Shown here: positions 19,378 through 45,327 of the stretch, piece after piece | Position numbering within the stretch: position 1 is the stretch's first letter | Layout: each line of letters starts with the position of its first letter | Source of the DNA: Candidatus Hydrogenedens sp. | GTDB taxonomy: Bacteria; Hydrogenedentota; Hydrogenedentia; Hydrogenedentales; Hydrogenedentaceae | Reading direction: 5' to 3' | Length of the DNA stretch: 64,000 nt | Assembly (NCBI GenBank): GCA_049968235.1 | Contig: JBMFRC010000008.1 | Span: 1-64,000, forward strand | Notes under the pieces: generated by a model | What the model was told of the DNA's origin: nothing | Seen by the model: only the letters and a program-made list of their open reading frames with translations | Databases searched by the model: none | Program-made: the position numbers and the translations under genes

Positions 19378-20789
19378 ATTACGGTAGATAGATAAAACAA
19401 ATGCTGGTCAACATCCGCATCCGTTGCTACAAATCCGAAAGTATCCTTCCGGACATCGTTCCCCCAACGATATACATAGGCTGCATCAATATTAATACGG
19501 TTCTTTATAAGACACCCGGCACCTAATGTAATCCCATAATAATTGTCCACAGAACCATCTCCTTTTCCAAGACCAAACCAGCGGTCAGGTCTTCCGCTGG
19601 AAGGCTCCGGGTCATAAAAGGCACCTACACGAACACTTGGCAAAAGGGATTGTCTCGGTTTGTTCGGATTAAAGAATAAATACTCCGCACCTATCCGAAC
19701 AGTATAAGTAGCATCATGAGGGCTCCAATCCACAGGTAAATTAGATATTCCTGAACGCTTACGCATGAGCCAATTCCGATTTTCCGGGTCATGAATAACA
19801 AACTGGTCCCATTCGCAACGGGTAACATCAAAACTTAATGTCAATTTGTCATTAGGAAAACGATAAGCCACACCGATACCATACGAAGTAGGGAATGTAT
19901 ATTTCAGAGGTCTATGGCTATAGAAAAATCCCGGGAAGCCCACGCCTCGATTGATAATCCACCATTCTTCATAATCCACATCTGCAGTAAATTTTGAATG
20001 ATATACCGCCCCAATTTGCCATCTTTCACCGAGACGATACAAAGCCCCTAACGTAATATTCGTTCCTTCAAAATCGCGATATTTCTTTCGTATAACGGTA
20101 TGAGAAAAGGAAGCACGGTTTGTCTGTCCATTAATATTTAATGTTCGATATTCTTCCTGGTCTACAGTCCATTCATTATTTTGTATTAATGACTGATTCC
20201 AGAGATTTAGCACAATACCTACGGACAATCGGTTGGTTAGTTCAAAACCCAATGCAGGGGATAGCGTTGCCAATTGACCACTTTGTTTATATTTTACAAG
20301 CGAGTGTAAACCTGCTCTATTTCCTAATGCTAAAGCAGATATATCGCGATAAAAGAAATCCAGTTCCCGGGAAAAATCATACTTTGCCTGATAATTCAAA
20401 CTTAATACAAGATTGCGACCCTTAATAGTTCTCTGGAATGGATATACGAAACTCATGTAATTCAATTGGCTAAAATCAACTGAATAATCACCCTCTAATT
20501 CCGGATGGGGTAGAGATTGAAAACCTTCACCGATATATTTATAGGTATAGACCATAGAAAATTCCGGGCGTTCCAATTGCGTTAAACCGCCGGGATTCCA
20601 TGAAGCGGAAGTTGCATCATCTGCGATGGCAATAAAAGCGCCACCCATACCGATGGCACGAGCACCACTACCTATTACATTCGGAGAAGAATTAATCGGT
20701 ATGCCCTGTGACCATCCGTCATAGGTGGGAAAGCCGATTGTTAGTAAAAAAATGATACTACATAGTAATTGAAGGAAGACCTTTTTCAA
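19368..20789 (-). CDS. Outer-membrane beta-barrel protein (signal peptide, alternating amphipathic strands, C-terminal aromatic residue)
   Basis: N-terminal signal MKKVFLQLLCSIIFLL, and the protein ends ...LSTVIYF. It overlaps the upstream lipoprotein gene by 32 nt. Confidence 0.5.
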   Translation of the reverse strand: MKKVFLQLLCSIIFLLTIGFPTYDGWSQGIPINSSPNVIGSGARAIGMGGAFIAIADDATSASWNPGGLTQLERPEFSMVYTYKYIGEGFQSLPHPELEGDYSVDFSQLNYMSFVYPFQRTIKGRNLVLSLNYQAKYDFSRELDFFYRDISALALGNRAGLHSLVKYKQSGQLATLSPALGFELTNRLSVGIVLNLWNQSLIQNNEWTVDQEEYRTLNINGQTNRASFSHTVIRKKYRDFEGTNITLGALYRLGERWQIGAVYHSKFTADVDYEEWWIINRGVGFPGFFYSHRPLKYTFPTSYGIGVAYRFPNDKLTLSFDVTRCEWDQFVIHDPENRNWLMRKRSGISNLPVDWSPHDATYTVRIGAEYLFFNPNKPRQSLLPSVRVGAFYDPEPSSGRPDRWFGLGKGDGSVDNYYGITLGAGCLIKNRINIDAAYVYRWGNDVRKDTFGFVATDADVDQHLFYLSTVIYF

Positions 20790-22929
20790 TGGCTACGCCC
20801 TCCGAAGGTTTAGATGTATCTGTAATTACCTGCCCCCGGGCACTGGTCGACGAGACATTTACAATTCGGGTTTTGTAAAGAATGCCGTAGTCCGCGGGTT
20901 GTGTTATTTCACCCGTATCCGGGTCAATCCAGGCAGGAGAGGCTTCATAAAGGATAAGTGCATAAGTTCCCGGACGAATACCATCCTGCTCTGCCCAGTT
21001 AAATAATACTTCATATTTTGAATCCGAACCGCGATAATCTAAAACTTCCCCAGATAAACGTGGGAAGAAATCTGCTAATCGCCTTGCAAGCACATCACAC
21101 TTGCCTAACACAAGTTCTTTATTATTAACATTGTCAATAAAGCCATCAAAGATAGAGATAACCTCCGATGTCTCAGTACTTATTAACCGTAGTTTTACTT
21201 CTGCAGATTGTTCCCCTCTCGGGAACAGTTCACCCACAACAAAAACTTGTGCAGGCACCATTCGTCCAATCTCCAATGCTCTATTTGGGTCTGCCAAGCC
21301 AGCGGACAACTGTTGTTCATTCAACACATTTTGAAGATAAATTCTATCCAATATGTAGAAGCGTCCCTGCTTCCTTATACTCTCTTCCAGAACCGTTCTT
21401 AAATCACTTCCAAAACTATCTGTTGCGGTTCTGCCTGCAATAGCCAGTAATGCAATACTCATCTTGGTTTCATTCTTATTTACGAGAACAGGTTCTACCC
21501 TTACATCCATTTCCTTGCTTGCCTTCTTCCCCTGCGTATCCTGTGCCTCAATAGATAATTTTACCTTTCCCACACCTGATGGTAATAAGTCTGATGGTAA
21601 AGGAACGCGTTTGTTGAATGCCTCTTTAGGAGCACCTGTTAATTGTGTATATGGTTCTCCATTGATAAGCAGTGTTTGCACTGCAGAAGAACTGGTAATT
21701 TCCCCAGCAACACGAATAACGCGATTATGACGAGAGGGTTGTTCTGGTTTCGGAGTTTTTATATTGATGTCTATTCCTGAATCTTCGATTTGAGTTGATA
21801 ATATCTCACTAAGAATGGTTGCAGAGAACGATGATGTTGCTAAAGCGTGATTAATGCGGGTACTCCGTTGTGCAAAACGCCACAGAAGAGCCAATTGAGA
21901 ACGAGGTTCTCCTTTGAATGTTTTAATAGCAGTGCGTGTCTCATTACCTGCGGTATCACGAGCAGAAATAATAAAAACATTTTCGCCATCTTTCAAAGGT
22001 AAAACAGAACGGAATTCCCTACGATGTTCTCCATCGCCTTGCGATATAACCTGATTATTCAGAGAAATCTCTGCTATCCCCGTATCATCTACTACAACTC
22101 CTTCCAAAGCAAGTTCCGTGTCATTTATAACAAGATAATCTGTAGGTTTGAAAATACCGATACTTGGACCTGTAAGGTCAACCTGTGCCGATAAATTGTA
22201 ACTACTTTCTTTACCTGCAAGGTCGCGAACGGTTATAACGAAATCCTGTTTTCCCTCTTTGGTTTCGATAGGCTGTTCTATAAGGGCTGATTTTTCACCA
22301 TGTCGCAGGTATACAGATTGCTGATTCACAAAAATCTGCTCTATACCTATATCATCTGAACATTCTATTTTCAAATGATTATTTGCTTCACGAACAATCA
22401 TCGAAGAGGCATTTTTTTTATTTCTATCTTTTGTTATCTCCGCACTTATTTCAACTAGTTCTGCCTTTACTTTCGGCGGTTCACGGTCCTGCAATTCACC
22501 TTTCGATATGCGTTCCTTAATAATCATATCCAGGTAGTATCTTGCCCGTTCCGTATCTACCTGGGACAAAGAATTTCGCAATAATGTTTCTGCCTCCGAT
22601 AACTGTCCTTTCTTAAATAAAGTAATACCTAATTCACGATTCGGGAAATACTCAACAAAATGTAAACCGTAGGTACGTGCCTGCCATGTATCTCGTGAAC
22701 GACTTTGCAATGCGGTTCGTAAATCCTGTTCCGCTTCGTTCAAAAAGCCACCGGATAAAAACGAACAACCACGTTCATAGTAGTTCCACCATCTACCATG
22801 AAAAACTCCTGAAGTTACACCATAAGTCTTTCCCCCCACTGTGTAATTATCTGACGGTGAGGTTTGACAGCCAATAAAAATAAAAAGACTCATCAATATA
22901 ACCAGTAAATTATAATATCCTTTTCTCAC
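20758..22929 (-). CDS. Large lipoprotein with a TPR-like N-terminal region, central Ig-like repeats, and a C-terminal CsgG/TolB-N-like domain
   Basis: Lipobox ...FIGC. The C-terminal IALLAIAGR...RFYILDRIYLQNVLNEQQLS resembles the CsgG / LpoB-type fold. Confidence 0.45.
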   Translation of the reverse strand: MRKGYYNLLVILMSLFIFIGCQTSPSDNYTVGGKTYGVTSGVFHGRWWNYYERGCSFLSGGFLNEAEQDLRTALQSRSRDTWQARTYGLHFVEYFPNRELGITLFKKGQLSEAETLLRNSLSQVDTERARYYLDMIIKERISKGELQDREPPKVKAELVEISAEITKDRNKKNASSMIVREANNHLKIECSDDIGIEQIFVNQQSVYLRHGEKSALIEQPIETKEGKQDFVITVRDLAGKESSYNLSAQVDLTGPSIGIFKPTDYLVINDTELALEGVVVDDTGIAEISLNNQVISQGDGEHRREFRSVLPLKDGENVFIISARDTAGNETRTAIKTFKGEPRSQLALLWRFAQRSTRINHALATSSFSATILSEILSTQIEDSGIDINIKTPKPEQPSRHNRVIRVAGEITSSSAVQTLLINGEPYTQLTGAPKEAFNKRVPLPSDLLPSGVGKVKLSIEAQDTQGKKASKEMDVRVEPVLVNKNETKMSIALLAIAGRTATDSFGSDLRTVLEESIRKQGRFYILDRIYLQNVLNEQQLSAGLADPNRALEIGRMVPAQVFVVGELFPRGEQSAEVKLRLISTETSEVISIFDGFIDNVNNKELVLGKCDVLARRLADFFPRLSGEVLDYRGSDSKYEVLFNWAEQDGIRPGTYALILYEASPAWIDPDTGEITQPADYGILYKTRIVNVSSTSARGQVITDTSKPSEGVAIEKGLPSITM

Positions 22930-23067
22930 ATCGAACTCCCTGAACTTTGTTTTTATATTTTCTGTTCCTTTATTACTAATTTTACCATTTATTATAAAAA
23001 AATGAGATAAAATTTTGTTAGAAATTTTTAAAATATTATAGTTTTAATTATATCTTAAAACGAATCT

Positions 23068-24012
23068 ATGCAATATATAATTTTTGTTACATTATTTATT
23101 TTACTTCAAAATCAACCTATCACGATAGAAACCATAAATTACTTAAATTCCAATGAATTTGCTTGTGGTTTTAATCTTACTACTGTTCGTCCTATGGATA
23201 AACCGAATACTCTCGGAACTCTTACTTTACCCTCTCCCCCACAGATTGAACAGAGTCCTATATATCGTTTAGCACAGTGGGCAACAAATTTTCCGTTATA
23301 TTCTGGCGTCTTTACAAAAGCAGGAGAAAATACCTGGATTGCAAGGAATGAAGCGAAAAAAAACGTTTTGCATAAAAAAGATAACCTTTGGAGTATTGTT
23401 TTGAATAGTAATGGAATTACCGAATATCAAGGGAAGTTACGGAAATATGGAGAACCCTGGCCTCATCTCTTGATTGAAAAGGCATTCCCTGAAGGAATAA
23501 AAATAACAGGAAATAATCTGGCTTTTAATCTGGAATTTAGAATTACGAATTGTATATGTGATGATAGATTAAAAGAGAACATCGACCCAACATTACATAC
23601 CGCACAAATTTCCGCTTTCTGGACAGTGAAAAATAACAACCCGAATAGTAAAGATTATAAAGAGTTCTTCTGGCTTGGATTACCTCTTTTTGATGCACGT
23701 TATCCCATCCCTCCTGAGTATATAAACATAGACATAGGGTCTACCTATACAACCAACAAACTGATTACGGTAATTGATGGAAAGCGATTTTATGAAGATA
23801 GTACAGGTGATGGAGATAGGAATAAACTGAATACTCTGCTAACCCCCCTTTTTGAAGAGGCATTAAACAAAGGTCAAAAACGTGGATATTTAACCAAATC
23901 ACACATTGAAGATTTTATCCTTACCTCATTCAATTTAGGTTGGAAAATTACAGGACCCTATAACGTTGAAATTGAAATAAGAAACCTTTCACTGAATTGT
24001 GATAGAAAATAA
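23068..24012 (+). CDS. Hypothetical secreted protein (signal-peptide-like N-terminus)
   Basis: 314-aa ORF with a hydrophobic N-terminus and no recognisable motifs. It is adjacent to the BNR protein gene. Confidence 0.4.
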   Translation: MQYIIFVTLFILLQNQPITIETINYLNSNEFACGFNLTTVRPMDKPNTLGTLTLPSPPQIEQSPIYRLAQWATNFPLYSGVFTKAGENTWIARNEAKKNVLHKKDNLWSIVLNSNGITEYQGKLRKYGEPWPHLLIEKAFPEGIKITGNNLAFNLEFRITNCICDDRLKENIDPTLHTAQISAFWTVKNNNPNSKDYKEFFWLGLPLFDARYPIPPEYINIDIGSTYTTNKLITVIDGKRFYEDSTGDGDRNKLNTLLTPLFEEALNKGQKRGYLTKSHIEDFILTSFNLGWKITGPYNVEIEIRNLSLNCDRK

Positions 24013-24038
24013 CGACAAAACATAGAAGGGGCAAAACG

Positions 24039-25147
24039 ATGAACAAATCTTTATTATTTATTGGGTTAGCCCTGCTTACTCTGACATCATTTGGAGAACG
24101 ATGGATTCATCCTGCAGTAGAAACACTGGATATAGGACATAATCCTCCGTTTGTTATTCTCGCGATGGTAGTCTGGGAACAATAGATGCAGAAGGTTTCC
24201 GTGTAAGTAAAGATGATGGAAAAACATGGTCTGAACTCGTCCCTGTCTGCAAAGGTTTAGATGTTGAAGAACCTGCGTCCTATTATCTCCTGCGGATAAA
24301 AAACAATACACTCGTTTTGGTATATCTGAATTTCATTGGTAAAAAATTTGACTGGGATGAAAAGAACAAAGAACCTAAAGAAGGATGTGAATTAGAAGTT
24401 TGGGCGATACGAAGCCTTGACGAAGGGAAAACATGGGTAGATAATCAATGCATCCTTGACGGATATAACACCAACATTTTCGCATTGATACAAACCCGTT
24501 CCGGAAGGATTATAGCACCTTTTGACCATTTGACCAGCAATCCGGGGCATTTTATGATATGTTCCCTCTATTCGGATGATGAAGGGAAAACATGGCAAAG
24601 AAGTAACTGGATTGATATAGGAGGACATGGACATCACGACGGGGCATTAGAACCTACTCTTGCAGAACTGAGCGATGGACGATTGCTTATGTTGATTCGA
24701 ACCAGTTTAGACCAATTTTGGCAGGCAATTTCAGAAGATAACGGGAAATACTGGCGAATTATTCAGCCAAGCGGAATACAGGCAAGTAATTCTCCCGGCT
24801 ATTTATTGCGATTGTCAAATGGGAAACTGGTCCTCGTCTGGAATCAACTTAATCCGGAAGGACGGACTTATTCTAAAAGCGTTATGCCTCAACATACAGA
24901 ATTCCTTTCCTCATGGCATCGTGAAGAACTATCCATTGCCTTTTCAGATGACGATGGCAAAACATGGACAAAACCCGTCGTTATAGCACGGCAAACTGGT
25001 GGTCAATTAAGTTATCCTTATATTTTTGAACGCCGTCCAGGTGAATTGTGGATTATTCCCGGCTTCGCATTTCAAAAAATGTGGGATGAACCTCTCCCCT
25101 TACGAATGAAAATAAACATAGATACATTTTACAATGCAATAAAATAG
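24039..25147 (+). pseudogene. BNR/Asp-box repeat (sialidase-like, GH33-fold) protein disrupted by a +1 frameshift near 24160-24185
   Basis: An ATG with RBS at about 24039 encodes a signal peptide, MNKSLLFIGLALLTLTSFG..., and stops at about 24183. A second frame, open from about 24143, continues RDGSLGTIDAEGFRVSKDDGKTW... into the track ORF 24317..25147. Four S-x-D-x-G-x-T-W boxes are present. Confidence 0.5.
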
Positions 25148-25608
25148 ACTATACACACGAACATTTTCTCAATCACAATGCTGGACAAGGATAAACAACC
25201 TATAATTAGGATTGAGAAATAGGACAGAAAAAATATATGGAATAGCATATTTGCTAAAAGATAGCCCACAAACTCCCACACATGTCGGAAACAATAAGAA
25301 TAATGCAACATACATAAAAACTATGTTTTCCTAAAAATATAAGAACAAAATGAAAAGTAAGTATTTTTCAACTGCATAGTTCGCAGATAACTAAAAAATT
25401 CCCTGGCAAAGGAAGCATGAGCATAAGATTGAACAATGAAAAGGGAATATTTCCTATGAATGAGATGAATTAAATTATTTTTTATGTTTACATAAAGAAC
25501 ACAGAGGAAAATAAGGAGAACAACGAACAATTAATTCTATACTTACCCCTTTTTGATTGTATCTTAAAAACTATGTATGCAAGCCAACAAATCATCGGCT
25601 AAAACAAA

Positions 25609-26274
25609 TCAAACACCCCTTACATTCTCACCCCAGATAATTCGATGTAATTGTATCTGTAACCGCACAGGCAAACCATCTTGCAAAATCCAATGTGCAA
25701 ATTCCTGTAAAGATATACGCCCGGCAACAGGTGAGAATAAGATAGCACGACATTTTTTGACTAACTGAAACTCATTAATCTTCTGAACTGCAAAATCATA
25801 ATCATTTCGGTCCGCAATGACAAACTTTACCTCATCAAGAAACGGGTTCAAATAACCGATATTCTCCCACAACATCCGTTTTTCCATACCACTTGAAGGA
25901 CATTTAATATCCATAACCTTAATCACCCCCGGCGGAACATTTTTGATGGAACATGCACCATTGGTTTCCAATAGAACCGTATACCCCATCTCCATAAGAG
26001 TTTTCATTAACGAAAAAACAGATTTCTGTAACAACGGCTCTCCCCCGGTAATTTCCACCATCTTACACTTATATTGAAAAATAATTTTCAATATCTCCTC
26101 CATAGTAAAAAAAGTACCCTTCTCAAAGGCATACCTCGTATCACACCATGAACAATTTAAATTACACCCAGACAACCGAATGAAAATCATCGGACACCCC
26201 GCCCATGTAGATTCCCCCTGTATACTATAAAAAATCTCACATATTTCTAACTTGCTATCTTTATTTAAATCCAT
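25609..26274 (-). CDS. queE: 7-carboxy-7-deazaguanine synthase QueE (radical SAM)
   Basis: EIFYSIQGESTWAGCPMIFIRLSGCNLNCSWCDT matches the QueE N-terminus with its CxxxCxxC cluster motif. The start is chosen at the internal Met (MDLNK) rather than the track start at 26340. Confidence 0.8.
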   Translation of the reverse strand: MDLNKDSKLEICEIFYSIQGESTWAGCPMIFIRLSGCNLNCSWCDTRYAFEKGTFFTMEEILKIIFQYKCKMVEITGGEPLLQKSVFSLMKTLMEMGYTVLLETNGACSIKNVPPGVIKVMDIKCPSSGMEKRMLWENIGYLNPFLDEVKFVIADRNDYDFAVQKINEFQLVKKCRAILFSPVAGRISLQEFAHWILQDGLPVRLQIQLHRIIWGENVRGV

Positions 26275-26434
26275 ATAAAACTCTGCAATCAAGTAAGAGC
26301 ACTCTATAATAAAATGTGCATATAAAATTGAGAATAGCAAGTGTATTATATTTAAAGCAAAGCAAGGTTGAATCGTAGTACTTTTTTATCTTTAGATGGA
26401 TAGATACTATTTTTTACATCTTTCATTATAAATT

Positions 26435-26453
26435 TGGTAATATAAAATATTAC
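26435..26453. promoter_or_regulatory. Perfect 19-bp palindrome GGTAATAT-AAA-ATATTACC in the divergent queE / R-M-like intergenic region. It could be an operator or a hairpin.
   Basis: Read directly from the sequence. The 8-bp arms are exact reverse complements, about 45 nt upstream of the GAGG RBS at 26489. Confidence 0.4.
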
Positions 26454-26498
26454 CGAAATGTTTATGGTTTTTAACTATTCTTAATTATGAGGTTTTTT

Positions 26499-26914
26499 AT
26501 GGATAAGAAAGAATTAGGTTCAAAAACAGCTAAGGGGGGGGATTTGCCAATGAAAAAAGGATATGTGAGAAATTCAATTCCTGGGCAAAAGATAAAGAAG
26601 CGCAAGAATGGCTTCAAATAATGGGTTATAATCTTGACAAAATTAAATCTGTAAAAGCGATTCAAATACCTACCAAAATAAAAAAAGGAAATTTTAATAA
26701 ATTTTGTATAAAAGAAGATGAATATGAAGAATTTGTCAAATATAAAAAAGCAGATGCGCAAATAAAAATTTGTATAAAAGTTGGGGACATCATAAAAATC
26801 GAAAATCTATCTCTAAAAAAAGCAAATCAAGATGCTGACTACAATCAAATAGATAAAAGAACAGTTAATAATTACCAGGAAATGTGGGGATTTAGTGACG
26901 AAATATCATACTAG
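26499..26914 (+). CDS. Putative phase-variable or frameshifted ORF. The ATG at 26499 (RBS GAGG) runs into a G8 tract at about 26534-26541 and stops after 40 codons. One extra G fuses it to the frame of the 97-aa track ORF 26621..26914.
   Basis: Frame analysis from the sequence: frame 0 gives MDKKELGSKTAKGGDLPMKK...K*. Frame 2 is open from the G tract: GGFANEKRICEKFNSWAKDKEAQEWLQIMGYNLDK... The ATG at 26621 has no RBS. Confidence 0.35.
26534..26541 (+). repeat. Homopolymeric G8 tract inside the 5' end of the first ORF of the R-M-like operon (candidate slipped-strand phase-variation site)
   Basis: gctaaggggggggatttgcc read directly from the sequence. It is the only long G run noticed in an otherwise AT-rich islet. 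Confidence 0.6.
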
Positions 26915-26953
26915 CTCAAACTTTTCACAGGCGAATTAAGCCCCAAAAAAGAA

Positions 26954-27352
26954 ATGAAACAGGGGAATCTAAAAGAACTAAAAACCATAAGTTTTAGGGA
27001 TGCAAGGCGATTATTCCTTGACGAAATTCCTCCAAAAGCACAAAATAAAATTATTAACTTTTTTAAGAAGAATAGAATTAGAGTGGTGAGTGATATAATA
27101 AAAGGGAGAGGAGGACTATCAGCAAATTGGATGTTAGTAACAAAATATGATAAGAAACATGATAAAACAGCATGGATACTAAAAGATATAAATTTTGTGA
27201 TGAACTTTTTTGGAAACGGAAAGATATGCATTTCACCTAAGGGCAGTCTATATATTGGAAAAATCACAATGCAAAGAAAAGGCGGGACTCCAGATTCAAC
27301 AAAAATACAGTTTAAAATCAAACCTTGTGAGTTATTTGGCAGTGGAGAATAA
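26954..27352 (+). CDS. Hypothetical 132-aa ORF in the same frame as 26621..26914, separated from it by only a TAG codon. It ends 2 nt before the methyltransferase start. It is a possible C-terminal part of a decayed restriction endonuclease.
   Basis: Frames 26621 and 26954 are both ≡2 mod 3. The only intervening stop is the TAG at 26912-26914. The composition is very AT-rich, like the MTase gene. Confidence 0.35.
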   Translation: MKQGNLKELKTISFRDARRLFLDEIPPKAQNKIINFFKKNRIRVVSDIIKGRGGLSANWMLVTKYDKKHDKTAWILKDINFVMNFFGNGKICISPKGSLYIGKITMQRKGGTPDSTKIQFKIKPCELFGSGE

Positions 27353-27354
27353 AT

Positions 27355-28152
27355 ATGGAAGTTGATAAAGTTTATTTAGGAGACTGCATAAAAATAATGC
27401 AAGATATGCCGGATAATTGCGTCGATTTAGTATTTGCAGACCCTCCTTTCAATATTGGAATAAAATACGATGTCCATGATGATAATATGTCTTATGAAGA
27501 ATATTATAAATGGTCAATGCAATGGATAAGTGAATGTTATAGATTATTAAAGGAAAATGGTAGTATTTATATTGCCATTGGAGATGAATTTGCCGGAGAA
27601 ATAAGTATTATCTTAAAAAAAATTGGCTTCTATTTTAGAAACTGGATTATCTGGTATTACACTTTTGGACAGAACCAACGCAAAAAATTTAATCGGGCTC
27701 ATACACATATTTTGTACTTCACAAAGGATAGAACGAAATTTACATTTAATGACAAAGAGATACGAATTCCATTTGCCCGACAAATTGTGTATAGAGATAA
27801 AAGAGCAAATCCATTGGGTAAAATTCCCGATGATGTCTGGCAGTTCTCACGGGTATGTGGCACATTTAAGGAAAGAATAGGAAATCATCCCTGCCAGATG
27901 CCGGAAGATTTACTAGAACTGATAATTAGAACAAGTTCAAATATAGGAGATATTGTATTAGACCCATTTGGAGGGACAGGAACAACATCAGTCGTGGCTA
28001 AAAAGTTAAACCGAAAATATATCACAATAGAAATTTCAAAAAAATATTATGAAATTATCTTAAAAAGGTTAAATGGCGAAATTAAAGGAATGAACAAAAG
28101 CAACTCTGTAGAGAAAACATATCAAAAATCTTTGTTTGATTTTGATTATTAA
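27355..28152 (+). CDS. Beta-class DNA methyltransferase (N6-adenine or N4-cytosine; DPPF motif IV at the N-terminus, FGGTGTT motif I at the C-terminus)
   Basis: VDLVFADPPFNIG and HPCQMPEDLLELIIRTSSNIGDIVLDPFGGTGTTSVVAKKLNRKYITIE, in PF01555-type order. Confidence 0.85.
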   Translation: MEVDKVYLGDCIKIMQDMPDNCVDLVFADPPFNIGIKYDVHDDNMSYEEYYKWSMQWISECYRLLKENGSIYIAIGDEFAGEISIILKKIGFYFRNWIIWYYTFGQNQRKKFNRAHTHILYFTKDRTKFTFNDKEIRIPFARQIVYRDKRANPLGKIPDDVWQFSRVCGTFKERIGNHPCQMPEDLLELIIRTSSNIGDIVLDPFGGTGTTSVVAKKLNRKYITIEISKKYYEIILKRLNGEIKGMNKSNSVEKTYQKSLFDFDY

Positions 28153-28176
28153 GACCCAAATTTTGTAGAGATATAA

Positions 28177-29448
28177 TCACCTACCAAATATATTTTTTAT
28201 TGCTTGAAGGTAAGCGTAGCCGTGAACAGTGTCAGGTTCGAGGTAACTACCTTCGGTCCATTCGTTCCATGCATTGATGGTTAATGTTTTGTTGCAGATA
28301 GGGTTGTTATCTAAAAATGTGCGACATTTTTCTAAAGCGGATTGAAATTGTTCGGGGGTATTGCCTGATAAAATGGGCGTAAATGGATAGCCTTTGTTTT
28401 CGAAGGGGTCGTCCTGTTTACAACGGGGTGATGAATCCCAGCCCATGGAGACATTGGGGAAATAAGGAACAGTAAATTGTTGGGAGCGTTCTGCCCAGAT
28501 TTTATCAAATCGATTTGCCACTTCTGTATAGGGCGTTTCGGGGAATGTATTTAATGGAGTATCCAGAACCCATGCGTATGAGGTTACACTATCTATGGTT
28601 AAGTAGTGAATTAGTTCCGCCGGGGTCATTTTTCCTTGAACACATTTTGGCATGCGATTTTCAATGTTAACCACATTAATGTGTACACCGGGAAAACCTT
28701 TAGCAATTGCATTTTTCTGGAAATTATCCAGTGATTTTTTAGCCATTTCTAAACCGCCAACACCATCGACAAAGGTATGAATTTCATAAATAGAGAATAC
28801 AGGTTTGCCGTAGATAGTCCAATAGGCAGGGTCAGAAAAATATTTATCAATCACATAATTAGTAATTTGCTCAAAGGTTTCTGGAGTTACTTCGCCAGGA
28901 TATAGCACTTCCGGTGATTGAATCTTTGCTAAGGACGCCGGATGTATATTTATCCATGTATGGTTAGCCCACATCACGGCGAAACGAACGCGATTATGAT
29001 TCCGTGCTTTAAGGTAGCCTTCGTCTAAACATCGCTGTAAAAAAGGTCCATCGTTATACCAGTACCAGTCGAACAGAAAAACATCAATCCCATGTTCCGC
29101 TGCGCTATCAATTTTCATTTCCATTACCTTAGGGTCTGCTTCATCTACATAACCCCACAGGGGAATCTTCGGCTGTTGATGCCCCGAAAAACGCGGTCTG
29201 GCATTTTTCACCAGTTCCCATTCCGTCCAATTTTGACCGTGAACTTTTTCATTTCGTTTGTCTATGTGATAATTTGGAAAATAGAAACAGGCAACGGTGT
29301 AATCACCTCTTGAATTTTTTATAGGTAACGATTTTCCCTGAGATGTTTCATCCGAGAAACAGGGTCTGCCCGTAAAATAAAAAAGAACAAGAAATAATAG
29401 AAAAATTTTGATACAGAAACATGTTGATAAATGATATTGTGCATACAT
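28177..29448 (-). CDS. Secreted Glyco_tran_WbsX-like (GH99-like fold) protein
   Basis: Signal peptide. ACFYFPNYH...NWTEWE...GYVDEADPKVMEMKIDSAAEHGIDVFLFDWYWY resembles the WbsX family N-terminal consensus. Confidence 0.55.
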   Translation of the reverse strand: MYAQYHLSTCFCIKIFLLFLVLFYFTGRPCFSDETSQGKSLPIKNSRGDYTVACFYFPNYHIDKRNEKVHGQNWTEWELVKNARPRFSGHQQPKIPLWGYVDEADPKVMEMKIDSAAEHGIDVFLFDWYWYNDGPFLQRCLDEGYLKARNHNRVRFAVMWANHTWINIHPASLAKIQSPEVLYPGEVTPETFEQITNYVIDKYFSDPAYWTIYGKPVFSIYEIHTFVDGVGGLEMAKKSLDNFQKNAIAKGFPGVHINVVNIENRMPKCVQGKMTPAELIHYLTIDSVTSYAWVLDTPLNTFPETPYTEVANRFDKIWAERSQQFTVPYFPNVSMGWDSSPRCKQDDPFENKGYPFTPILSGNTPEQFQSALEKCRTFLDNNPICNKTLTINAWNEWTEGSYLEPDTVHGYAYLQAIKNIFGR

Positions 29449-29468
29449 TTTCTTTTCCTTTCGTATGT

Positions 29469-30167
29469 TTATTTTTTTTGTTTCATTTCTTTCTTCATTA
29501 TAAACAAATAATTAAAGCCACGGAGAAAATAATTTCCGCGTTCTGCTTCGGTATGGTAGTGTCTTCTTTTTAATGTCCGATTATGTCGAACAACCGCAAT
29601 AATATCGATAGGGGTAAACCATTGTTCCATAATCGAAAACAATCGAAATCCAATGGGTGCAAAAGGTTTCTTTTTTTGATAAGAGTCACAACAATACAAA
29701 GCCATAAATCGTTGAGGTTTCAATATACGATAAATCTCACGGATGCATTGCTCCATAGATTTGTAATAAGTATCATCATTAGCACTCAAAGTGCCGATAC
29801 AACGCGGGTCATCGGAATAATGAATATTCGTACCATAAGGGGGGTCTATAAAAACAAAGTCAACACTTTCACTGCGTAACGGTATTTTTCGTGCATCCGC
29901 AGAAATAATATCATCCCGATAGGGACTTAAATCGAACCCGATAACCTTACGATGTAAATCTTTACACACATCAATAGTTGTCCCACTTCCACACATGGGG
30001 TCAACAACGAGGTCTTTTTCACGCGTATACCGCTGTAATAGATTCCAAATAATATACGAAGGAGTTGCGCCGGGATAATTCTGGTCTCCCTGCATACAGT
30101 CGCCATAATGTTGTGAGGGATAATCCCAGAGGGTCGTTGTCTGTAAACTTAATTCTGGTTTTCTCAT
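29469..30167 (-). CDS. Small SAM-dependent methyltransferase with a DPPY motif (amino-methyltransferase, DNA N6A/N4C or RNA m2G type). Motif I precedes motif IV.
   Basis: ATPSYIIWNLLQRYTREKDLVVDPMCGSGTT (motif X/I) is followed by VDFVFIDPPYGT (motif IV). 232 aa, with GC like the core genome. Confidence 0.6.
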   Translation of the reverse strand: MRKPELSLQTTTLWDYPSQHYGDCMQGDQNYPGATPSYIIWNLLQRYTREKDLVVDPMCGSGTTIDVCKDLHRKVIGFDLSPYRDDIISADARKIPLRSESVDFVFIDPPYGTNIHYSDDPRCIGTLSANDDTYYKSMEQCIREIYRILKPQRFMALYCCDSYQKKKPFAPIGFRLFSIMEQWFTPIDIIAVVRHNRTLKRRHYHTEAERGNYFLRGFNYLFIMKKEMKQKK

Positions 30168-30398
30168 AATTGGGTTATAAACTATAATCTTTGATTTGTA
30201 AATGGTTTTGATTAAGTATTAGTATTTTAAGGATTATGTAAAGATATTTTATAACAAAAAGGTGTAAACTTTTTTAAAATTTCACTCACTTGTGATATTA
30301 TAATATTCTAACACGGGCTTTTAAGATAAACCTGTAAAAAGAAGTTTTGGGTAGATAAAAATTTGTTGAATAAAACAGTTTGAATATGGAGAAGTTCA

Positions 30399-31394
30399 AT
30401 GAAAAAGTATTTTATTTTTGTGCTTGTTCTCGCAAGTAGTTTGCTGGTCGTGGATAGTTATGCACAGTGGACATGGACACCGCAGACCGGTAGATTTATT
30501 AATGTAAAGCGGATGCCTAAAGAGACCGCTGAACTGCAAATTGAGTATGCACGAAGTTTATATTTGCAAGGAAATTATAAAAAAGCCCTTAAAGAAACAG
30601 AGAAATTCTTTGATTTTTATGGACAGGACCCATTAGCAGACCAGAACTTGTTTTTACGTGGCGAAATTAAAATGGCTATGGAGAAATGGCTGGAAGCAGC
30701 AAAAGAATTTCAGAAATTGGTCTCTGGCTATCCCAGTTCAAAACTCTACGAACAAGCCATACAAAAGCAGTTTGAAATCGGTGATAAGTTATATGAACGT
30801 GGGTTAAAAAAGAGAAGTAAATTCTTATCCTTTTTCAAAGGGAAACCATTAAAACATGCAATAGAAGTTTATGGAATGGTTGTAAGTAACCAGCCATTTA
30901 TGCCTCGTTCTGCAGAAGCCCAGTATAAAATTGGACTTTGTCATCATGCAAGAAAGGAATATATTGAAGCGGGTTATGAATATCGCCGTGTTATAGAAAA
31001 TTATCCTCAATCCGATTGGGTAGACGATGCCCGCTATGGGTTAGCCCGATGCTATTATGAATCCTCCTTGCCACCCGAGTATGACCAGAGTAGAGCAGAA
31101 TTAGCAATAGAAGCCATTGACGAATTTTTAAAAATTTTTCCTGAAGATACTCGCGTAGAAGAACTTAAAGGATGGCGTCAAAAAATGCGGAACAATATAG
31201 CAGAACAAAAATTAATAGTAGCCCGTTATTATGAAAAACAGAGGAAGTTCGATTCGGCAAGGATATACTATCAATTAATATCTAACCAATATACAGATAC
31301 ACCATCCGCAGAAAAAGCCAATAAATGGTTGCAAGAAAACCCTGTAAAGATGAGTGATTTGAAAACTCAATTCGAGCAGGAGACAAAAAAATAA
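30399..31394 (+). CDS. TPR-repeat lipoprotein, BamD/YfiO-like
   Basis: Signal peptide plus multiple TPR-like repeats (YARSLYLQGNYKKAL...). It lies immediately upstream of the LptE-like and holA genes. Confidence 0.45.
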   Translation: MKKYFIFVLVLASSLLVVDSYAQWTWTPQTGRFINVKRMPKETAELQIEYARSLYLQGNYKKALKETEKFFDFYGQDPLADQNLFLRGEIKMAMEKWLEAAKEFQKLVSGYPSSKLYEQAIQKQFEIGDKLYERGLKKRSKFLSFFKGKPLKHAIEVYGMVVSNQPFMPRSAEAQYKIGLCHHARKEYIEAGYEYRRVIENYPQSDWVDDARYGLARCYYESSLPPEYDQSRAELAIEAIDEFLKIFPEDTRVEELKGWRQKMRNNIAEQKLIVARYYEKQRKFDSARIYYQLISNQYTDTPSAEKANKWLQENPVKMSDLKTQFEQETKK

Positions 31395-42768: not shown

Positions 42769-45327
42769 TTATGCCCATGTAACAAGTCCCACTTCAAATT
42801 TATTTGCAAGGTTCTCCCGATACGGAAATACACGAACGGAATATCCAGACAATCCTGTTTCATTACAAGAAATAATCCCTTTGAAACGAAACACTTTGTC
42901 TTCGATTTTCTTCTCAAAATCCATATTAACGGCATACCCTTCTTTAATCGTGCCATCATGATTTAGATGACCGACATAACTCTCCACACGAACATCTTCT
43001 TGTGTAAGATTGTCAAGATATATATCCGCTTCAATAGGAATCTCTGTTCCTACGGGGACATCACCATGCAATTTAGCCTCAACACGCACAAAACGAATAT
43101 TATTCCATACTAACTGTACTTTCTTTTTCCATTCCGCTAACTCAATTGCATATTTGCGGTTATCCTTACGGAAGAGAATACGTCGTTTGGAGAATGGGAT
43201 ATATGCCTTTTCTGCGTATTCTTGAACCATTCTGTAAGTATTAAATATGGGACAGATTGTTTTGATAGCTTCCTTCATTCGTAATATCCATTCACGCGGT
43301 AAACCATCTTGTCCACGATCATAAAACATAGGAATAATTTCCTGTTCCAGTATTTCATATAGTGCAGAACTTTCCACCCGGTCCTGCTCTTCTGTTGATT
43401 CGTAAGTTTCACCTTTCCCGATGGTCCAGCCGTTATGTCCCAATCCGTTTGCTTCACACCACCAACCATCAGGGATACTAATATTCAAAGCCCCATTGGC
43501 AGCGGCTTTCATTCCACTGGTGCCACTGGCTTCCATAGGTCTTCGGGGGGTATTGAGCCAGCAATCGACACCCTGAACCATATATCGTGCTACATTTATA
43601 TCATAATCTTCAAGAAACACAATATGGTTTCGCACTTCGGGATCCATAGCAAAATGAACAATTTGGCGAATGAGTTCTTTCCCCTGAATATCCTGGGGGT
43701 GTGCTTTGCCAGCGATAATTATCTGAACGGGTTTCTCTTTATTCAGTAAAATCTTTTTCAGGCGTGCGGGGTCGCGGAATAAAAGGGTTACCCGTTTATA
43801 AGTAGCAAATCTTCTTGCAAATCCGATGGTTAAACATTCCGGGTCTAAACATTCACTTGCAAAATTTATTCCTGAAGGAGGAGCACCACGATTAATTAAC
43901 TGCTTTTTTAGTCTCCTTCGTGCAAAATCTACCAGTCTTTCTCTTCGACGTTCATGGGTCCGCCATAATTCAGTTTCAGGTATTTCATTCACTTGTTTCC
44001 ATATCGAATGGTCTTCAGGACTATTTAGCCAGCCGGGTCCCAAGTAACGGTCATAGAGGTCTGCCAGGTCCCGAGAAATCCATGAACGGATATGAACACC
44101 ATTTGTTATAGATGTAATAGGAATTTCATGCTGAGGCAAATCTTTCCATACACGAGACCACATTTCTCTTGAGACAACCCCATGTAATTTACTGACACCA
44201 TTCGCTCCCGCACATAATCTCAATGCGAGGACCGTCATACAGAAAGGTTCTCGGGAATCATTGGGGTCCTGTCTCCCTAATGCCAGAAATTCATTCAAAC
44301 TTATTCCTACATCCTGACAATACTTACCAAAATACCTCTCAATTAAACCAGGGTCAAACATATCATTTCCCGCAGGAACCGGAGTATGTGTAGTAAAATA
44401 ACTTCCTGCTTTTACTGTTTCAACTGCTTGAGAAAATGTAAGTTTTTCATTCAATACCAATTCTTTTATCCGTTGAAGCACCATAAAGGATGCATGTCCT
44501 TCATTTAAGTGATAAATCGTTGGACGCAGTTTCAATGCATGCGCCGCAATAACCCCCCCCATACCTAACATAATTTCCTGTTTAATACGCGTCTCACGAT
44601 CTCCACCGTATAACTGTCCTGTTATGGTACGGTCCGCAGGAGAATTATCCTCATGGTCGGTATCCAATAGATATAAAGGAACACGCCCTACCTGACATCT
44701 CCATATATACGCCTTAACCATTCGCCCGGGATATTCTACCTCAATAACCATAGGCTCCCCGTTTTCATTTTTTACTTTCTCGATAGGCATATTGTAAAAG
44801 TCATTGGGTGGATACAATTCCTGTTGCCAGCCATCTGGATTGAGATACTGATGAAAATACCCTTCGCGGTAAAGCATACCCATACCAATCAAAGGCATAC
44901 CCAAATCACTTGCTGCCTTCAGGTGGTCACCAGCAAGAACACCTAAACCACCAGAATAGATATTTACACTTTCGTGAACACCAAATTCCGCTGACATATA
45001 AAGAATGCACATATCCTGGGGTGCATTGGAATTTCGTTCAAAATAAGTATTGGTATTCATGTAATCCTGCAATTGCGAATAGACCCGTTCCATGTGTGTA
45101 AGAAAACTATCGTTTTTTGCTAATTCATCCAATTTCTTTTGGCTTATCTTCCCCAACAGCATTTTGGGGTTCTGTCCACATTCAACCCACAAATCCCGGT
45201 CCATTCGGAAGAACAAATCAATCGCCTCCGGATTCCAGCACCACCAAAGATTATTTGCAATTTCAAGAAGTTTTTTTAATCGTTCCGGCAAATTAGGAAT
45301 GACATTAAAATGAAAGATATTCCTCAT
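42769..45327 (-). CDS. glgP: Alpha-glucan (glycogen/maltodextrin) phosphorylase, GT35 family
   Basis: GGLGVLAGDHLKAASDLGMP and the PLP-lysine region. 852 aa. Confidence 0.9.
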   Translation of the reverse strand: MRNIFHFNVIPNLPERLKKLLEIANNLWWCWNPEAIDLFFRMDRDLWVECGQNPKMLLGKISQKKLDELAKNDSFLTHMERVYSQLQDYMNTNTYFERNSNAPQDMCILYMSAEFGVHESVNIYSGGLGVLAGDHLKAASDLGMPLIGMGMLYREGYFHQYLNPDGWQQELYPPNDFYNMPIEKVKNENGEPMVIEVEYPGRMVKAYIWRCQVGRVPLYLLDTDHEDNSPADRTITGQLYGGDRETRIKQEIMLGMGGVIAAHALKLRPTIYHLNEGHASFMVLQRIKELVLNEKLTFSQAVETVKAGSYFTTHTPVPAGNDMFDPGLIERYFGKYCQDVGISLNEFLALGRQDPNDSREPFCMTVLALRLCAGANGVSKLHGVVSREMWSRVWKDLPQHEIPITSITNGVHIRSWISRDLADLYDRYLGPGWLNSPEDHSIWKQVNEIPETELWRTHERRRERLVDFARRRLKKQLINRGAPPSGINFASECLDPECLTIGFARRFATYKRVTLLFRDPARLKKILLNKEKPVQIIIAGKAHPQDIQGKELIRQIVHFAMDPEVRNHIVFLEDYDINVARYMVQGVDCWLNTPRRPMEASGTSGMKAAANGALNISIPDGWWCEANGLGHNGWTIGKGETYESTEEQDRVESSALYEILEQEIIPMFYDRGQDGLPREWILRMKEAIKTICPIFNTYRMVQEYAEKAYIPFSKRRILFRKDNRKYAIELAEWKKKVQLVWNNIRFVRVEAKLHGDVPVGTEIPIEADIYLDNLTQEDVRVESYVGHLNHDGTIKEGYAVNMDFEKKIEDKVFRFKGIISCNETGLSGYSVRVFPYRENLANKFEVGLVTWA

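What the first reader, a model, noticed from the sequence alone, without database searches (positions are those of the whole stretch)
26499..26914. G8 homopolymer places the first ORF of the R-M-like operon out of frame: candidate phase-variation switch
Translation from the only RBS-supported ATG (26499) reads through a G8 tract and stops after 40 codons. A G9 tract (or G6) would fuse it to a protein-like frame (…GGFANEKRICEKFNSWAKDKEAQEWLQIMGYNLDK…) that continues to 26914. Poly-G tracts in the 5' ends of restriction or modification genes are classic slipped-strand phase-variation devices. Nothing else in the islet is G-rich.
Basis: partly seen in the sequence, partly recalled or inferred. 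Interest (0 to 1): 0.65.

Follow-up and report, generated by a model that had tools for sequence, protein, structure and literature searches.

The report
Broken restriction enzyme gene, twice hit
The run of eight G's really does knock a restriction-enzyme gene out of frame, but the same gene also carries a premature stop codon further on, so it looks like an ordinary decaying restriction-modification system rather than a working on/off switch.

Summary
There is a G8 tract at 26534-26541. The ATG at 26499 has a GAGG ribosome-binding site, and its frame stops after 40 codons. G9 or G6 would join it to the frame that runs to 26914.

That frame does not end naturally at 26914. Positions 26499-27352 are a single R.HinP1I-family type II restriction endonuclease gene (Pfam 1.8e-53; PDB 1YNM 8.6e-56), 283 aa in intact orthologs. 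The TAG at 26912-26914 replaces a Trp codon that is TGG in a 99.93%-identical sister assembly and is Trp in all the homologs I read. Resetting the tract would therefore give only a 137-138 aa fragment.

The tract is specific to this lineage. Syntenic orthologs encode Lys-Gly-Gly as AAA GGT GGA or Arg-Gly-Gly as CGA GGG GGT. The window gene is exactly their length plus 2 nt, which fits G6+2. The only other sequence of this lineage is also G8, and it has a TAA nonsense codon in the downstream methyltransferase. Another orthologous lineage lost the endonuclease start codon (ATG>ATA).

Best reading: a recently inactivated, decaying R-M operon, with the G tract as the mutational hotspot. A working phase switch is not excluded for the lineage's ancestor. 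It is not supported for this genome. Ordinary; low interest.

The parts
26489..26492 (+). GAGG ribosome-binding site, 6 nt upstream of the endonuclease start codon
   Evidence: Read directly from the sequence. The same GAGG is conserved in the orthologous loci L002-L012.
26499..27352 (+). R.HinP1I-family type II restriction endonuclease gene. It is a pseudogene: 854 nt, which is the 852 nt of the orthologs plus 2 extra G, and it also has an internal TAG.
   Evidence: With the frame repaired, Pfam PF11463 scores 1.8e-53 (181.6 bits against a cut-off of 25). phmmer against PDB 1YNM (R.HinP1I) gives 8.6e-56 in two stretches, residues 3-56 and 84-280, which span both lesions. There are 2657 homologs, and the intact ones in the same synteny are 283 aa. 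The gene aligns codon for codon with four orthologs once the tract is trimmed to G6.
26499..26621 (+). The 40-codon ORF actually translated from the true start. It encodes the real N-terminus MDKKELGSKTAKG, then out-of-frame residues.
   Evidence: The same 40-aa ORF is called in the sister assembly GCA_049969095.1.
26534..26541 (+). G8 homopolymer (AAG GGG GGG G), the frameshift site. It covers the conserved Lys-Gly-Gly of the endonuclease N-terminus.
   Evidence: Orthologs have AAA GGT GGA or CGA GGG GGT at this position. The sister assembly has an identical G8.
26619..26623 (+). TAATG: the stop of the 40-codon ORF overlaps the internal ATG (Met41 of the 283-aa protein). Gene callers use this ATG for the 243-aa truncated product.
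   Evidence: P0001 (243 aa) starts here in the sister assembly. Any re-initiation at this ATG is inference only.
26912..26914 (+). TAG nonsense codon replacing Trp138 (numbered on the 283-aa orthologs). This is the second inactivating lesion.
   Evidence: The sister assembly has TGG here (G at 26913). All the homologs I read have W (ISYWLKLFTGEL). TAG is a normal stop in this genome, ending 4 of 39 long ORFs, and there is no tRNA gene in the window.
27344..27347 (+). GGAG ribosome-binding site of the methyltransferase gene, lying inside the 3' end of the endonuclease gene
   Evidence: GGAG lies 7 nt before ATG 27355, and the endonuclease stop TAA is at 27350-27352.
27355..28152 (+). Beta-class N6/N4 DNA methyltransferase gene (265 aa), intact in the window. 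It carries a derived Ser140Phe change (codon 27772-27774).
   Evidence: Pfam PF01555 scores 3.6e-64. The best solved relatives are M.RsrI, M.MboIIA and CcrM. The DPPF and FGGTGTT motifs are visible in the translation. Position 140 is S in all five other sequences and Y in M.RsrI and M.MboIIA. In the sister assembly codon 65 (27547-27549) is TAA.

Best explanation
Positions 26499-28152 are a chromosomal type II restriction-modification operon of a Candidatus Hydrogenedens lineage. It consists of an R.HinP1I-family endonuclease gene followed by a beta-class N6/N4 DNA methyltransferase gene. The operon has recently lost its endonuclease and is decaying.

Proposed sequence of events:
1. In this lineage the conserved Lys-Gly-Gly codons became AAG GGG GGA, a G6 run, through synonymous changes (inferred).
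2. Replication slippage added two G's, giving G8 (length shown; mechanism inferred).
3. Ribosomes starting at ATG 26499 now leave the endonuclease frame after Gly13-14 and stop at TAA 26619-26621, so only a 40-residue peptide is made (shown from sequence).
4. With the endonuclease off, selection on the pair relaxed. The window strain then gained a TGG>TAG nonsense mutation at Trp138 and a Ser140Phe change in the methyltransferase. Its closest relative gained a TAA nonsense codon in the methyltransferase (changes shown; direction inferred from orthologs).

In the window the methyltransferase ORF is still intact and has its own ribosome-binding site. It may persist as a solitary methylase.

The G tract is a slippage-prone hotspot and was the route of inactivation. 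In this genome it is not a functional reversible switch, because G9 or G6 would give only a 137-138 aa fragment lacking the C-terminal DNA-recognition half.
For: Gene identity:
- With the frame repaired, the endonuclease matches Pfam R-HINP1I at 1.8e-53 and PDB 1YNM at 8.6e-56. The aligned stretches lie on both sides of the G tract and of the TAG.
- The methyltransferase matches PF01555 at 3.6e-64.

The TAG is a mutation, not a natural gene end:
- The sister assembly is 99.93% identical over 9887 nt with 7 substitutions and no indels. It has TGG at this codon.
- All the homologs I read have Trp there.
- TAG is a normal stop in this genome.

The tract is lineage-specific and two bases too long:
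- Eleven orthologous loci (81-83% aa identity) were read. All that extend far enough show the same order: queE - R - M - wbsX - second MTase - bamD-like.
- They have AAA GGT GGA or CGA GGG GGT at the tract position.
- All four orthologs compared are 852 nt, and the window gene is 854 nt.

Second hits:
- Three of the 7 substitutions between the two strains fall in the 1.65-kb operon.
- All three are derived and protein-altering, and two are nonsense.
- Only about 6% of random substitutions in these genes create a stop. P(at least 2 of 3) is about 0.01.

The inactivation is recent: dN/dS of the window endonuclease against orthologs is 0.06-0.125, the same as among intact orthologs at 0.10-0.15.

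Endonuclease inactivation recurs in this clade: the lineage of L002-L004 has ATG>ATA at the endonuclease start while its methyltransferase is intact.

G8 is probably not an assembly error:
- Both assemblies have G8.
- The 9887-nt overlap holds 40 homopolymers of at least 6 nt, five of them at least 8 nt. None differs in length between the two assemblies.
- The window's other 8-mer tract is in frame in a housekeeping gene.

The missing C-terminal half matters: the HinP1I base-contact residue K223 (PMC7026639) lies beyond the TAG. It aligns to a conserved QRKGG.
Against: - A G8 tract at the 5' end of an R-M gene is exactly what a contingency locus looks like, and G8 is one slip away from an in-frame G9.
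- The low dN/dS shows the gene was functional until very recently. That is also what a phase-OFF allele would show.
- Only two consensus sequences of this lineage exist in the collections searched. No reads could be examined, so minority tract lengths, or minority TGG alleles in the window's population, cannot be excluded.
- Both assemblies are probably metagenome-derived consensus sequences. All 7 differences between them are protein-altering and none is synonymous. That is slightly odd, and some calls might be noisy.
- The effect of Ser140Phe on the methyltransferase is unknown, since Tyr occupies this position in M.RsrI and M.MboIIA.
Confidence: 0.7

Rival explanations
1. Contingency locus, either still working or working until recently. 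On this view the G tract evolved in this lineage as a slipped-strand ON/OFF switch for the endonuclease. G8 is the OFF phase. G9 (Lys-Gly-Gly-Gly) or G6 is the ON phase. The window strain has merely been locked OFF by a later nonsense mutation.
For: - G8 lies in the first 14 codons of a real endonuclease gene.
- The tract was built from minority synonymous codons. AAG is 24% of Lys codons and GGG is 19% of Gly codons, so the chance of AAG-GGG is about 4%.
- The gene was under purifying selection until very recently.
- In H. pylori, homopolymer tracts switch R-M genes. Reactivation is considered likely for repeats longer than 8 bp (PMC3936762).
- In the sister assembly the endonuclease has no lesion other than the tract.
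Against: - In the window, the ON length gives a 137-138 aa fragment.
- In the sister strain the methyltransferase is null, so ON would presumably be self-destructive.
- Both available sequences are G8.
- No ON-length protein of this lineage appears in the search of 5.8 billion protein clusters. The only hit above 90% identity is the 243-aa truncated call.
- No ortholog has a tract at this position.
- None of the 21 matches among GTDB species representatives to a G7-or-longer tract in this codon context is an R.HinP1I-family gene.
- G8 is at the lower edge of the lengths regarded as switch-prone.
- The tract is +2 from the canonical length, which suggests drift while OFF.
- The window's other G8 is a stable in-frame housekeeping tract.
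Confidence: 0.2
2. Assembly or sequencing artefact. On this view the true tract is G9 or G6 and the endonuclease N-terminus is in frame.
For: Homopolymer length is a classic error class. The window's sequencing technology is unknown.
Against: - Two different consensus sequences, which differ at 7 sites, both have G8.
- They show no length difference at any of the 40 homopolymers of at least 6 nt in the 9887 nt they share.
- The other 8-mer G/C tract in the window is in frame.
- Independent substitution-type lesions in the endonuclease and methyltransferase genes fit a genuinely dead endonuclease.
- Even if the tract were G9, the TAG would still truncate the protein.
Confidence: 0.06
3. Recoding. 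On this view programmed -1 ribosomal frameshifting, or transcriptional slippage, on G GGG GGG yields some full-length endonuclease from the G8 allele.
For: - G GGG GGG fits the X XXY YYZ slippery pattern.
- A -1 slip would read K-G-G-G-F-A-N-E in the endonuclease frame. This is derived directly from the sequence.
Against: - There is no stimulatory structure downstream. The 100 nt after the tract fold no better than shuffles (z = -0.69).
- The tract is absent from all orthologs, which encode the protein in one frame.
- In the window the TAG would still stop the product.
Confidence: 0.03

Closest known systems
R.HinP1I (Haemophilus influenzae P1, G^CGC; PDB 1YNM and 2FKC), Pfam PF11463
   Same: There is clear sequence homology over the whole length (8.6e-56). 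The conserved N-terminal segment ELGSKTAK-x-GF-x-NEK is present. So are the catalytic Asp and Lys at the spacing of the HinP1I SD-X18-QXK motif. That motif is from my memory of Yang et al. 2005, which the paper tool does not hold. The residues HinP1I uses to contact GCGC, namely Q93, K96 and K223 (PMC7026639), align to identical residues (NQIDK, QRKGG).
   Different: The gene here is broken by a frameshift and a nonsense codon. The protein is about 36 aa longer than HinP1I (283 vs 247 aa), with extra residues after residues 56 and 148. The middle motif residue is Ser (AD-X18-SLK), not Gln. The partner methyltransferase is an N6/N4 beta-class enzyme. From memory, the partner of HinP1I is a C5-cytosine methylase. 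The specificity here is unknown.
Homopolymer-tract phase-variable R-M genes of Helicobacter pylori, Campylobacter, Neisseria and Haemophilus (for example JHP1272 and HP1353-54, and the HP1471 G13/G14 tract; PMC3936762)
   Same: A poly-G tract lies inside the coding region of an R-M gene, and its length sets the reading frame. The observed allele is frameshifted.
   Different: Those tracts are usually longer (the paper says >8). They vary between strains or laboratory stocks, and repairing the frame often restores activity. Here no length variation was seen, and the tract is absent from orthologs. Repair cannot restore the protein in this genome. The host is an uncultivated environmental phylum with no documented phase variation.
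Decay of type II R-M systems into solitary methyltransferases (endonuclease lost first, methylase retained or later lost)
   Same: The endonuclease gene carries multiple lesions. The adjacent methyltransferase ORF is intact and has its own ribosome-binding site. A sister lineage lost the endonuclease start codon, and a sister strain lost the methyltransferase once the endonuclease was off.
   Different: Nothing essential. This is a textbook-like instance, caught early (dN/dS not yet elevated).

Membership tests
Simple-sequence-repeat contingency (phase-variable) locus | A homopolymeric G/C tract long enough to slip at high frequency (about 8 or more; >8 is regarded as likely in H. pylori) | tested here: inconclusive
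   The tract is G8 at 26534-26541, at the lower edge of the range quoted in PMC3936762. An equally long tract sits stably in frame in a housekeeping gene.
Simple-sequence-repeat contingency (phase-variable) locus | The tract lies in the 5' coding region or promoter, so that length changes toggle expression | tested here: met
   The tract covers codons 12-14 of the endonuclease gene. G8 stops translation after 40 codons.
Simple-sequence-repeat contingency (phase-variable) locus | An attainable tract length restores a complete, functional ORF | tested here: not met
   G9 or G6 reads only as far as TAG 26912-26914, which is Trp138 in the orthologs. In the sister assembly the endonuclease ORF would be restored, but the methyltransferase there is null.
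Simple-sequence-repeat contingency (phase-variable) locus | Tract length varies between strains or within a population | tested here: inconclusive
   Both available sequences are G8. Scans with exact flanks, allowing any length from 3 to 14, found nothing in JGI metagenomes or GTDB representatives. No other contig of the lineage exists in the collections.
Simple-sequence-repeat contingency (phase-variable) locus | The tract is maintained in orthologs or related strains | tested here: not met
   Eleven orthologous loci have AAA GGT GGA or CGA GGG GGT at this position. None of the 21 GTDB matches to a G7-or-longer tract in this context is a family member.
R.HinP1I family type II restriction endonuclease (PF11463) | A significant match to the family profile and to the solved member | tested here: met
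   181.6 bits against a cut-off of 25. 1YNM scores 8.6e-56 over residues 3-56 and 84-280.
R.HinP1I family type II restriction endonuclease (PF11463) | Catalytic motif (S/T)D-X18-QXK of the PD-(D/E)XK type | tested here: inconclusive
   The alignment gives AD-X18-SLK. Asp and Lys are conserved, and Ser replaces Gln, as in all the close homologs I read. The motif definition is from memory of Yang et al. 2005, which is not held.
R.HinP1I family type II restriction endonuclease (PF11463) | An uninterrupted ORF encoding the whole enzyme | tested here: not met
   There is a +2 frameshift at the G8 tract and a TAG at codon 138. It is a pseudogene of the family.
Beta-class N6/N4 DNA methyltransferase (PF01555) | A profile match plus motif IV (D/S)PP(Y/F) preceding motif I FxGxG | tested here: met
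   3.6e-64. DPPF is at residues 29-32 and FGGTGTT at 205-211. The best solved relatives are M.RsrI, M.MboIIA and CcrM. Whether the target base is adenine-N6 or cytosine-N4 was not resolved.
Programmed -1 ribosomal frameshift site | A slippery heptamer plus a downstream stimulatory structure, conserved in relatives | tested here: not met
   The heptamer G GGG GGG is present. The downstream fold has z = -0.69, and the tract is absent from orthologs.

The most novel reading that the evidence does not exclude
The G tract is a newly evolved contingency locus. On this reading an uncultivated, free-living Hydrogenedentes lineage built a slipped-strand ON/OFF switch into a type II endonuclease gene. 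It did so by synonymous codon changes followed by tract expansion. We would be seeing OFF-phase alleles, one of them later locked by a nonsense mutation. That would extend homopolymer phase variation of restriction from host-adapted pathogens to an environmental candidate phylum.
Probability: 0.15. Interest if true: 0.45.

Novelty: new member of a known kind. Interest (0 to 1): 0.2.

Why it matters
It matters little beyond annotation.

- Positions 26499-27352 should be annotated as one R.HinP1I-family endonuclease pseudogene, not as three small ORFs (26499-26621, 26621-26914 and 26954-27352).
- The methyltransferase at 27355-28152 should be treated as a possibly solitary methylase.
- The locus is a tidy, early-stage example of how type II R-M systems die. 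The endonuclease goes first through a slippage hotspot. Independent second hits then follow in the endonuclease or the methyltransferase in sister strains.
- If reads showed real tract-length heterogeneity linked to intact alleles, it would be a first hint of contingency loci in Hydrogenedentes. That would be moderately interesting.

Tried and rejected
- **Tract-length variants of this lineage.** An exact-flank pattern with N{3,14} found nothing in JGI metagenomes or GTDB species genomes, not even G8. The lineage is simply absent from those collections.
- **Longer tracts elsewhere in the family.** I scanned for G7-or-longer tracts in the same codon context (AAGGGGGGG N{0,6} TTYGCNAAYGA). None is an R.HinP1I-family gene by tblastn. 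The pattern was too loose to be informative beyond that.
- **More strains by exact-protein look-up.** I tried the 40-aa ORF, the 97-aa ORF, the methyltransferase, QueE and WbsX. Only the one sister contig came back, and the window's own assembly is not on record.
- **Literature on HinP1I catalytic residues.** The two primary papers, PMC1074309 and PMC1363774, are not held. The other papers gave recognition residues and general properties only. A search for Glu18 and Asp62 returned nothing relevant.
- **Promoter and terminator scan of 26200-28400.** Nothing rose above the shuffles.
- **TAG recoding or suppression.** Rejected. TAG ends other long ORFs, there is no tRNA gene in the window, and the sister strain has TGG.
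- **Ser140Phe as evidence of a dead methyltransferase.** Rejected as inconclusive, because Tyr occupies this position in M.RsrI and M.MboIIA.

Full report
**1. The observation**

- GAGG lies at 26489-26492, followed by the ATG at 26499.
- The coding sequence reads ATG GAT AAG AAA GAA TTA GGT TCA AAA ACA GCT AAG GGG GGG GAT.
- The G8 tract is at 26534-26541.
- The frame stops at TAA 26619-26621 after 40 codons.
- The frame two bases ahead reads GGGFANEKRICEKFNSWAKDKEAQEWLQIMGYNLDK... and is open to TAG 26912-26914. One more G, or two fewer, would fuse the two frames.

By count, a G8 tract is not exceptional. The window holds two G8/C8 tracts, against 1.21 expected from dinucleotide-preserving shuffles, and 36 of 100 shuffles had at least two. 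The second tract (44553-44560) encodes Met-Gly-Gly-Val in frame in an intact 852-aa glucan phosphorylase gene.

**2. What the gene is**

The frame that ends at 26914 continues after the TAG as the same protein, down to TAA 27350-27352.
- With the frameshift repaired and the TAG masked, the 283/284-aa product matches Pfam PF11463 (R.HinP1I restriction endonuclease) at 1.8e-53.
- It matches the solved R.HinP1I (PDB 1YNM) at 8.6e-56. That match comes in two stretches, residues 3-56 and 84-280, which lie on both sides of the tract and of the TAG.
- The tract encodes the Lys-Gly-Gly of a conserved N-terminal segment. It reads ELGSKTAKGGFANEK here and ELGSKTAKDGFKNEK in HinP1I.
- A database search gave 2657 homologs. 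The best full-length ones are 283 aa and begin M(D/N)KKELGSKTAKGGFANE.

Immediately downstream, 27355-28152 encodes an intact 265-aa beta-class N6/N4 DNA methyltransferase.
- Pfam PF01555 scores 3.6e-64.
- The DPPF and FGGTGTT motifs are visible in the translation.
- The best solved relatives are M.RsrI, M.MboIIA and CcrM.
- It has its own GGAG 7 nt before the ATG.

So 26499-28152 is a type II R-M operon whose endonuclease gene carries two lesions, not one.

**3. Related sequences**

The closest protein hit, P0001, comes from GCA_049969095.1 and is named by NCBI [quoted passage not shown]. It is 243 aa and starts at the internal ATG 26621. Its contig is 99.93% identical to window 20621-30507, with 7 substitutions and no indels over 9887 nt.

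That sister sequence also has G8. Three of the seven differences lie in the operon:
- **26913:** the window has A (TAG) and the sister has G (TGG, Trp). All the homologs I read have Trp there.
- **27548:** the window has T (TTA, Leu65) and the sister has A (TAA). The sister's methyltransferase therefore has a nonsense codon, and no gene was called there.
- **27773:** the window has TTT (Phe140) and the sister has TCT (Ser). All four orthologous lineages compared also have Ser.

So all three differences are derived and protein-altering, and two are nonsense. Only about 6% of random substitutions in these genes create stops, so the chance of at least 2 of 3 is about 0.01 even with no selection at all.

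Eleven orthologous loci at 81-83% aa identity were read. Every one that extends far enough shows the same gene order: queE, endonuclease, methyltransferase, wbsX-like, second methyltransferase, bamD-like. They carry no tract. Lys-Gly-Gly is encoded as AAA GGT GGA, or Arg-Gly-Gly as CGA GGG GGT.

All four orthologs compared are exactly 852 nt, and the window gene is 854 nt. Trimmed to G6, it aligns codon for codon with no other indel. The simplest history is synonymous changes that made AAG GGG GGA, followed by a +2 expansion.

In one of these lineages (L002-L004) the endonuclease start codon is ATA, with no alternative start upstream, and the methyltransferase is intact. That is an independent loss, or at least a strong weakening, of the endonuclease.

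**4. Timing**

dN/dS of the window endonuclease against orthologs is 0.06-0.125. Among intact orthologs it is 0.10-0.15. For the methyltransferase it is 0.04-0.075. The gene was therefore under purifying selection for nearly all of its history, and the disruption is recent.

**5. Is G8 an artefact?**

Probably not.
- Two different consensus sequences agree on G8.
- They agree in length at all 40 homopolymers of at least 6 nt in the shared 9.9 kb, five of which are at least 8 nt.
- The window's other 8-mer tract is in frame.

TAG is an ordinary stop here. It ends 4 of 39 long ORFs, and there is no tRNA gene in the window.

**6. Is it a phase-variation switch?**

The layout fits: a poly-G tract in the first 14 codons of an R-M gene. 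H. pylori shows that such tracts can switch R-M genes, with reactivation regarded as likely for repeats longer than 8 bp (PMC3936762). The evidence against a working switch here is as follows.
- In the window, the ON length yields a 137-138 aa fragment. The fragment lacks the C-terminal half, which in HinP1I carries the base-contact residue K223 (PMC7026639; alignment).
- In the sister strain the methyltransferase is null, so turning the endonuclease on would presumably be self-destructive.
- No length variant was found, and no ON-length protein of this lineage. Data are thin, though, because the lineage is known only from these two sequences.
- The tract is absent from orthologs.
- No family member among the GTDB matches carries a G7-or-longer tract in this codon context.
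- The tract is +2 from the canonical length, as expected if it drifted while already OFF.

Ribosomal -1 frameshifting on G GGG GGG is formally possible. However, there is no downstream structure (z = -0.69) and no conservation.

**7. Mechanism, with what is shown and what is inferred**

*Shown:*
- The endonuclease frame is broken at the tract.
- Translation from the only start with a ribosome-binding site ends after 40 codons.
- A second, substitution-type stop lies 290 nt downstream.
- The methyltransferase ORF is intact and has its own ribosome-binding site.
- The sister strain shares the frameshift but has a different second hit.

*Inferred:*
- Slippage of a G6 tract produced G8.
- The frameshift came first, because it is shared. 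The nonsense mutations followed under relaxed selection.
- The methyltransferase in the window may persist as a solitary methylase.
- The TAA stop overlaps the ATG at 26621 (TAATG). Some re-initiation there is conceivable, but its product would lack the conserved N-terminal 40 residues. In the window it would also end at the TAG.

**8. Comparison with what is known**

This is a pseudogenised member of the R.HinP1I family, paired unusually with an N6/N4-class methyltransferase. From memory, HinP1I's own partner is a C5 methylase. It behaves like the well-known decay of type II R-M systems, in which the endonuclease is lost first. It resembles homopolymer phase-variable R-M genes in layout only. 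The defining features of such a locus were tested and were not met or were inconclusive: a restorable ORF, length polymorphism, and maintenance of the tract.

**9. Verdict**

The finding is ordinary and useful mainly for annotation: one endonuclease pseudogene instead of three small ORFs. The residual novel reading is a newly evolved contingency tract in an environmental candidate phylum, now locked OFF. I give it about 0.15 probability. Read-level counts of tract length would settle it.

Noticed in passing
window 44553-44560 (- strand gene 42769-45327): This is the only other G/C run of 8 in the window. It lies in frame (ATG GGG GGG GTT, Met-Gly-Gly-Val) in an intact 852-aa alpha-glucan phosphorylase-like ORF. 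It is useful as an internal control for homopolymer calling and for slippage in read data.
   Followed up: partly
window 24039-25147 (+): The BNR/sialidase-like gene appears frameshifted in both assemblies. A 48-aa ORF with a signal-peptide-like start (MNKSLLFIGLALLTLTSF..., 24039-24185) is out of frame with the BNR-repeat body. The first canonical start of that body is TTG 24317, and the sister assembly's gene call begins at a CTG codon at 24173. A 1-nt loss near 24160-24170, not at a homopolymer, would explain it. This may be a second recent pseudogene 2.5 kb from the R-M operon.
   Followed up: partly
L001 6927-6929 (= window 27547-27549): In the sister assembly GCA_049969095.1, codon 65 of the methyltransferase is TAA where the window has TTA. 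No methyltransferase gene was called there, while the endonuclease carries only the G8 frameshift.
   Followed up: yes
L002 3881-3883, L003 2464-2466, L004 158-160: In an orthologous lineage at 82-83% aa identity, the endonuclease start codon is ATA instead of ATG. An in-frame TAG lies 12 nt upstream and there is no alternative start, so gene callers use the internal Met and give 243 aa. The methyltransferase is intact in L002 (L003 and L004 do not extend across it). This is an independent loss or weakening of the endonuclease.
   Followed up: partly
L004 (Logan DRR358089 contig, 1160 nt): Its first ~200 nt (upstream region and 5' end of the gene) are identical to L002/L003. Its 243-aa product (P0010) is almost identical to the L010 protein (P0003), not to P0007. 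It is either a recombinant allele or a chimeric short contig.
   Followed up: no
window 20621-30507 vs L001: All 7 substitutions between the two assemblies change the protein (5 missense, 2 nonsense) and none is synonymous. About 19% of random substitutions in the two R-M genes would be synonymous. The excess is not significant on its own. It is worth keeping in mind as possible consensus noise or very recent divergence.
   Followed up: partly
window 26499-27352 and 27355-28152: The residues HinP1I uses to read GCGC (Q93, K96, K223) align to identical residues here (NQIDK, QRKGG). Yet the partner methyltransferase is an N6/N4 beta-class enzyme with DPPF, not a C5 methylase. The specificity, and whether the methylase makes m4C or m6A, are open.
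   Followed up: no
window 29469-30167 (- strand): A second, 232-aa N6_N4-family methyltransferase lies next to the wbsX-like gene. The Pfam match comes as two stretches whose order suggests permuted motifs. It is present in every orthologous locus that extends that far (L001, L002, L006, L007, L010, L011), with no endonuclease beside it. It appears to be a conserved solitary methyltransferase.
   Followed up: no
window 26001-28000: The R-M operon is more AT-rich than the window as a whole (GC 0.30-0.33 against a mean of 0.38). That fits an acquired module. However, it sits at the same chromosomal position in every Hydrogenedens-like ortholog examined, so it was acquired before these lineages split.
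   Followed up: partly
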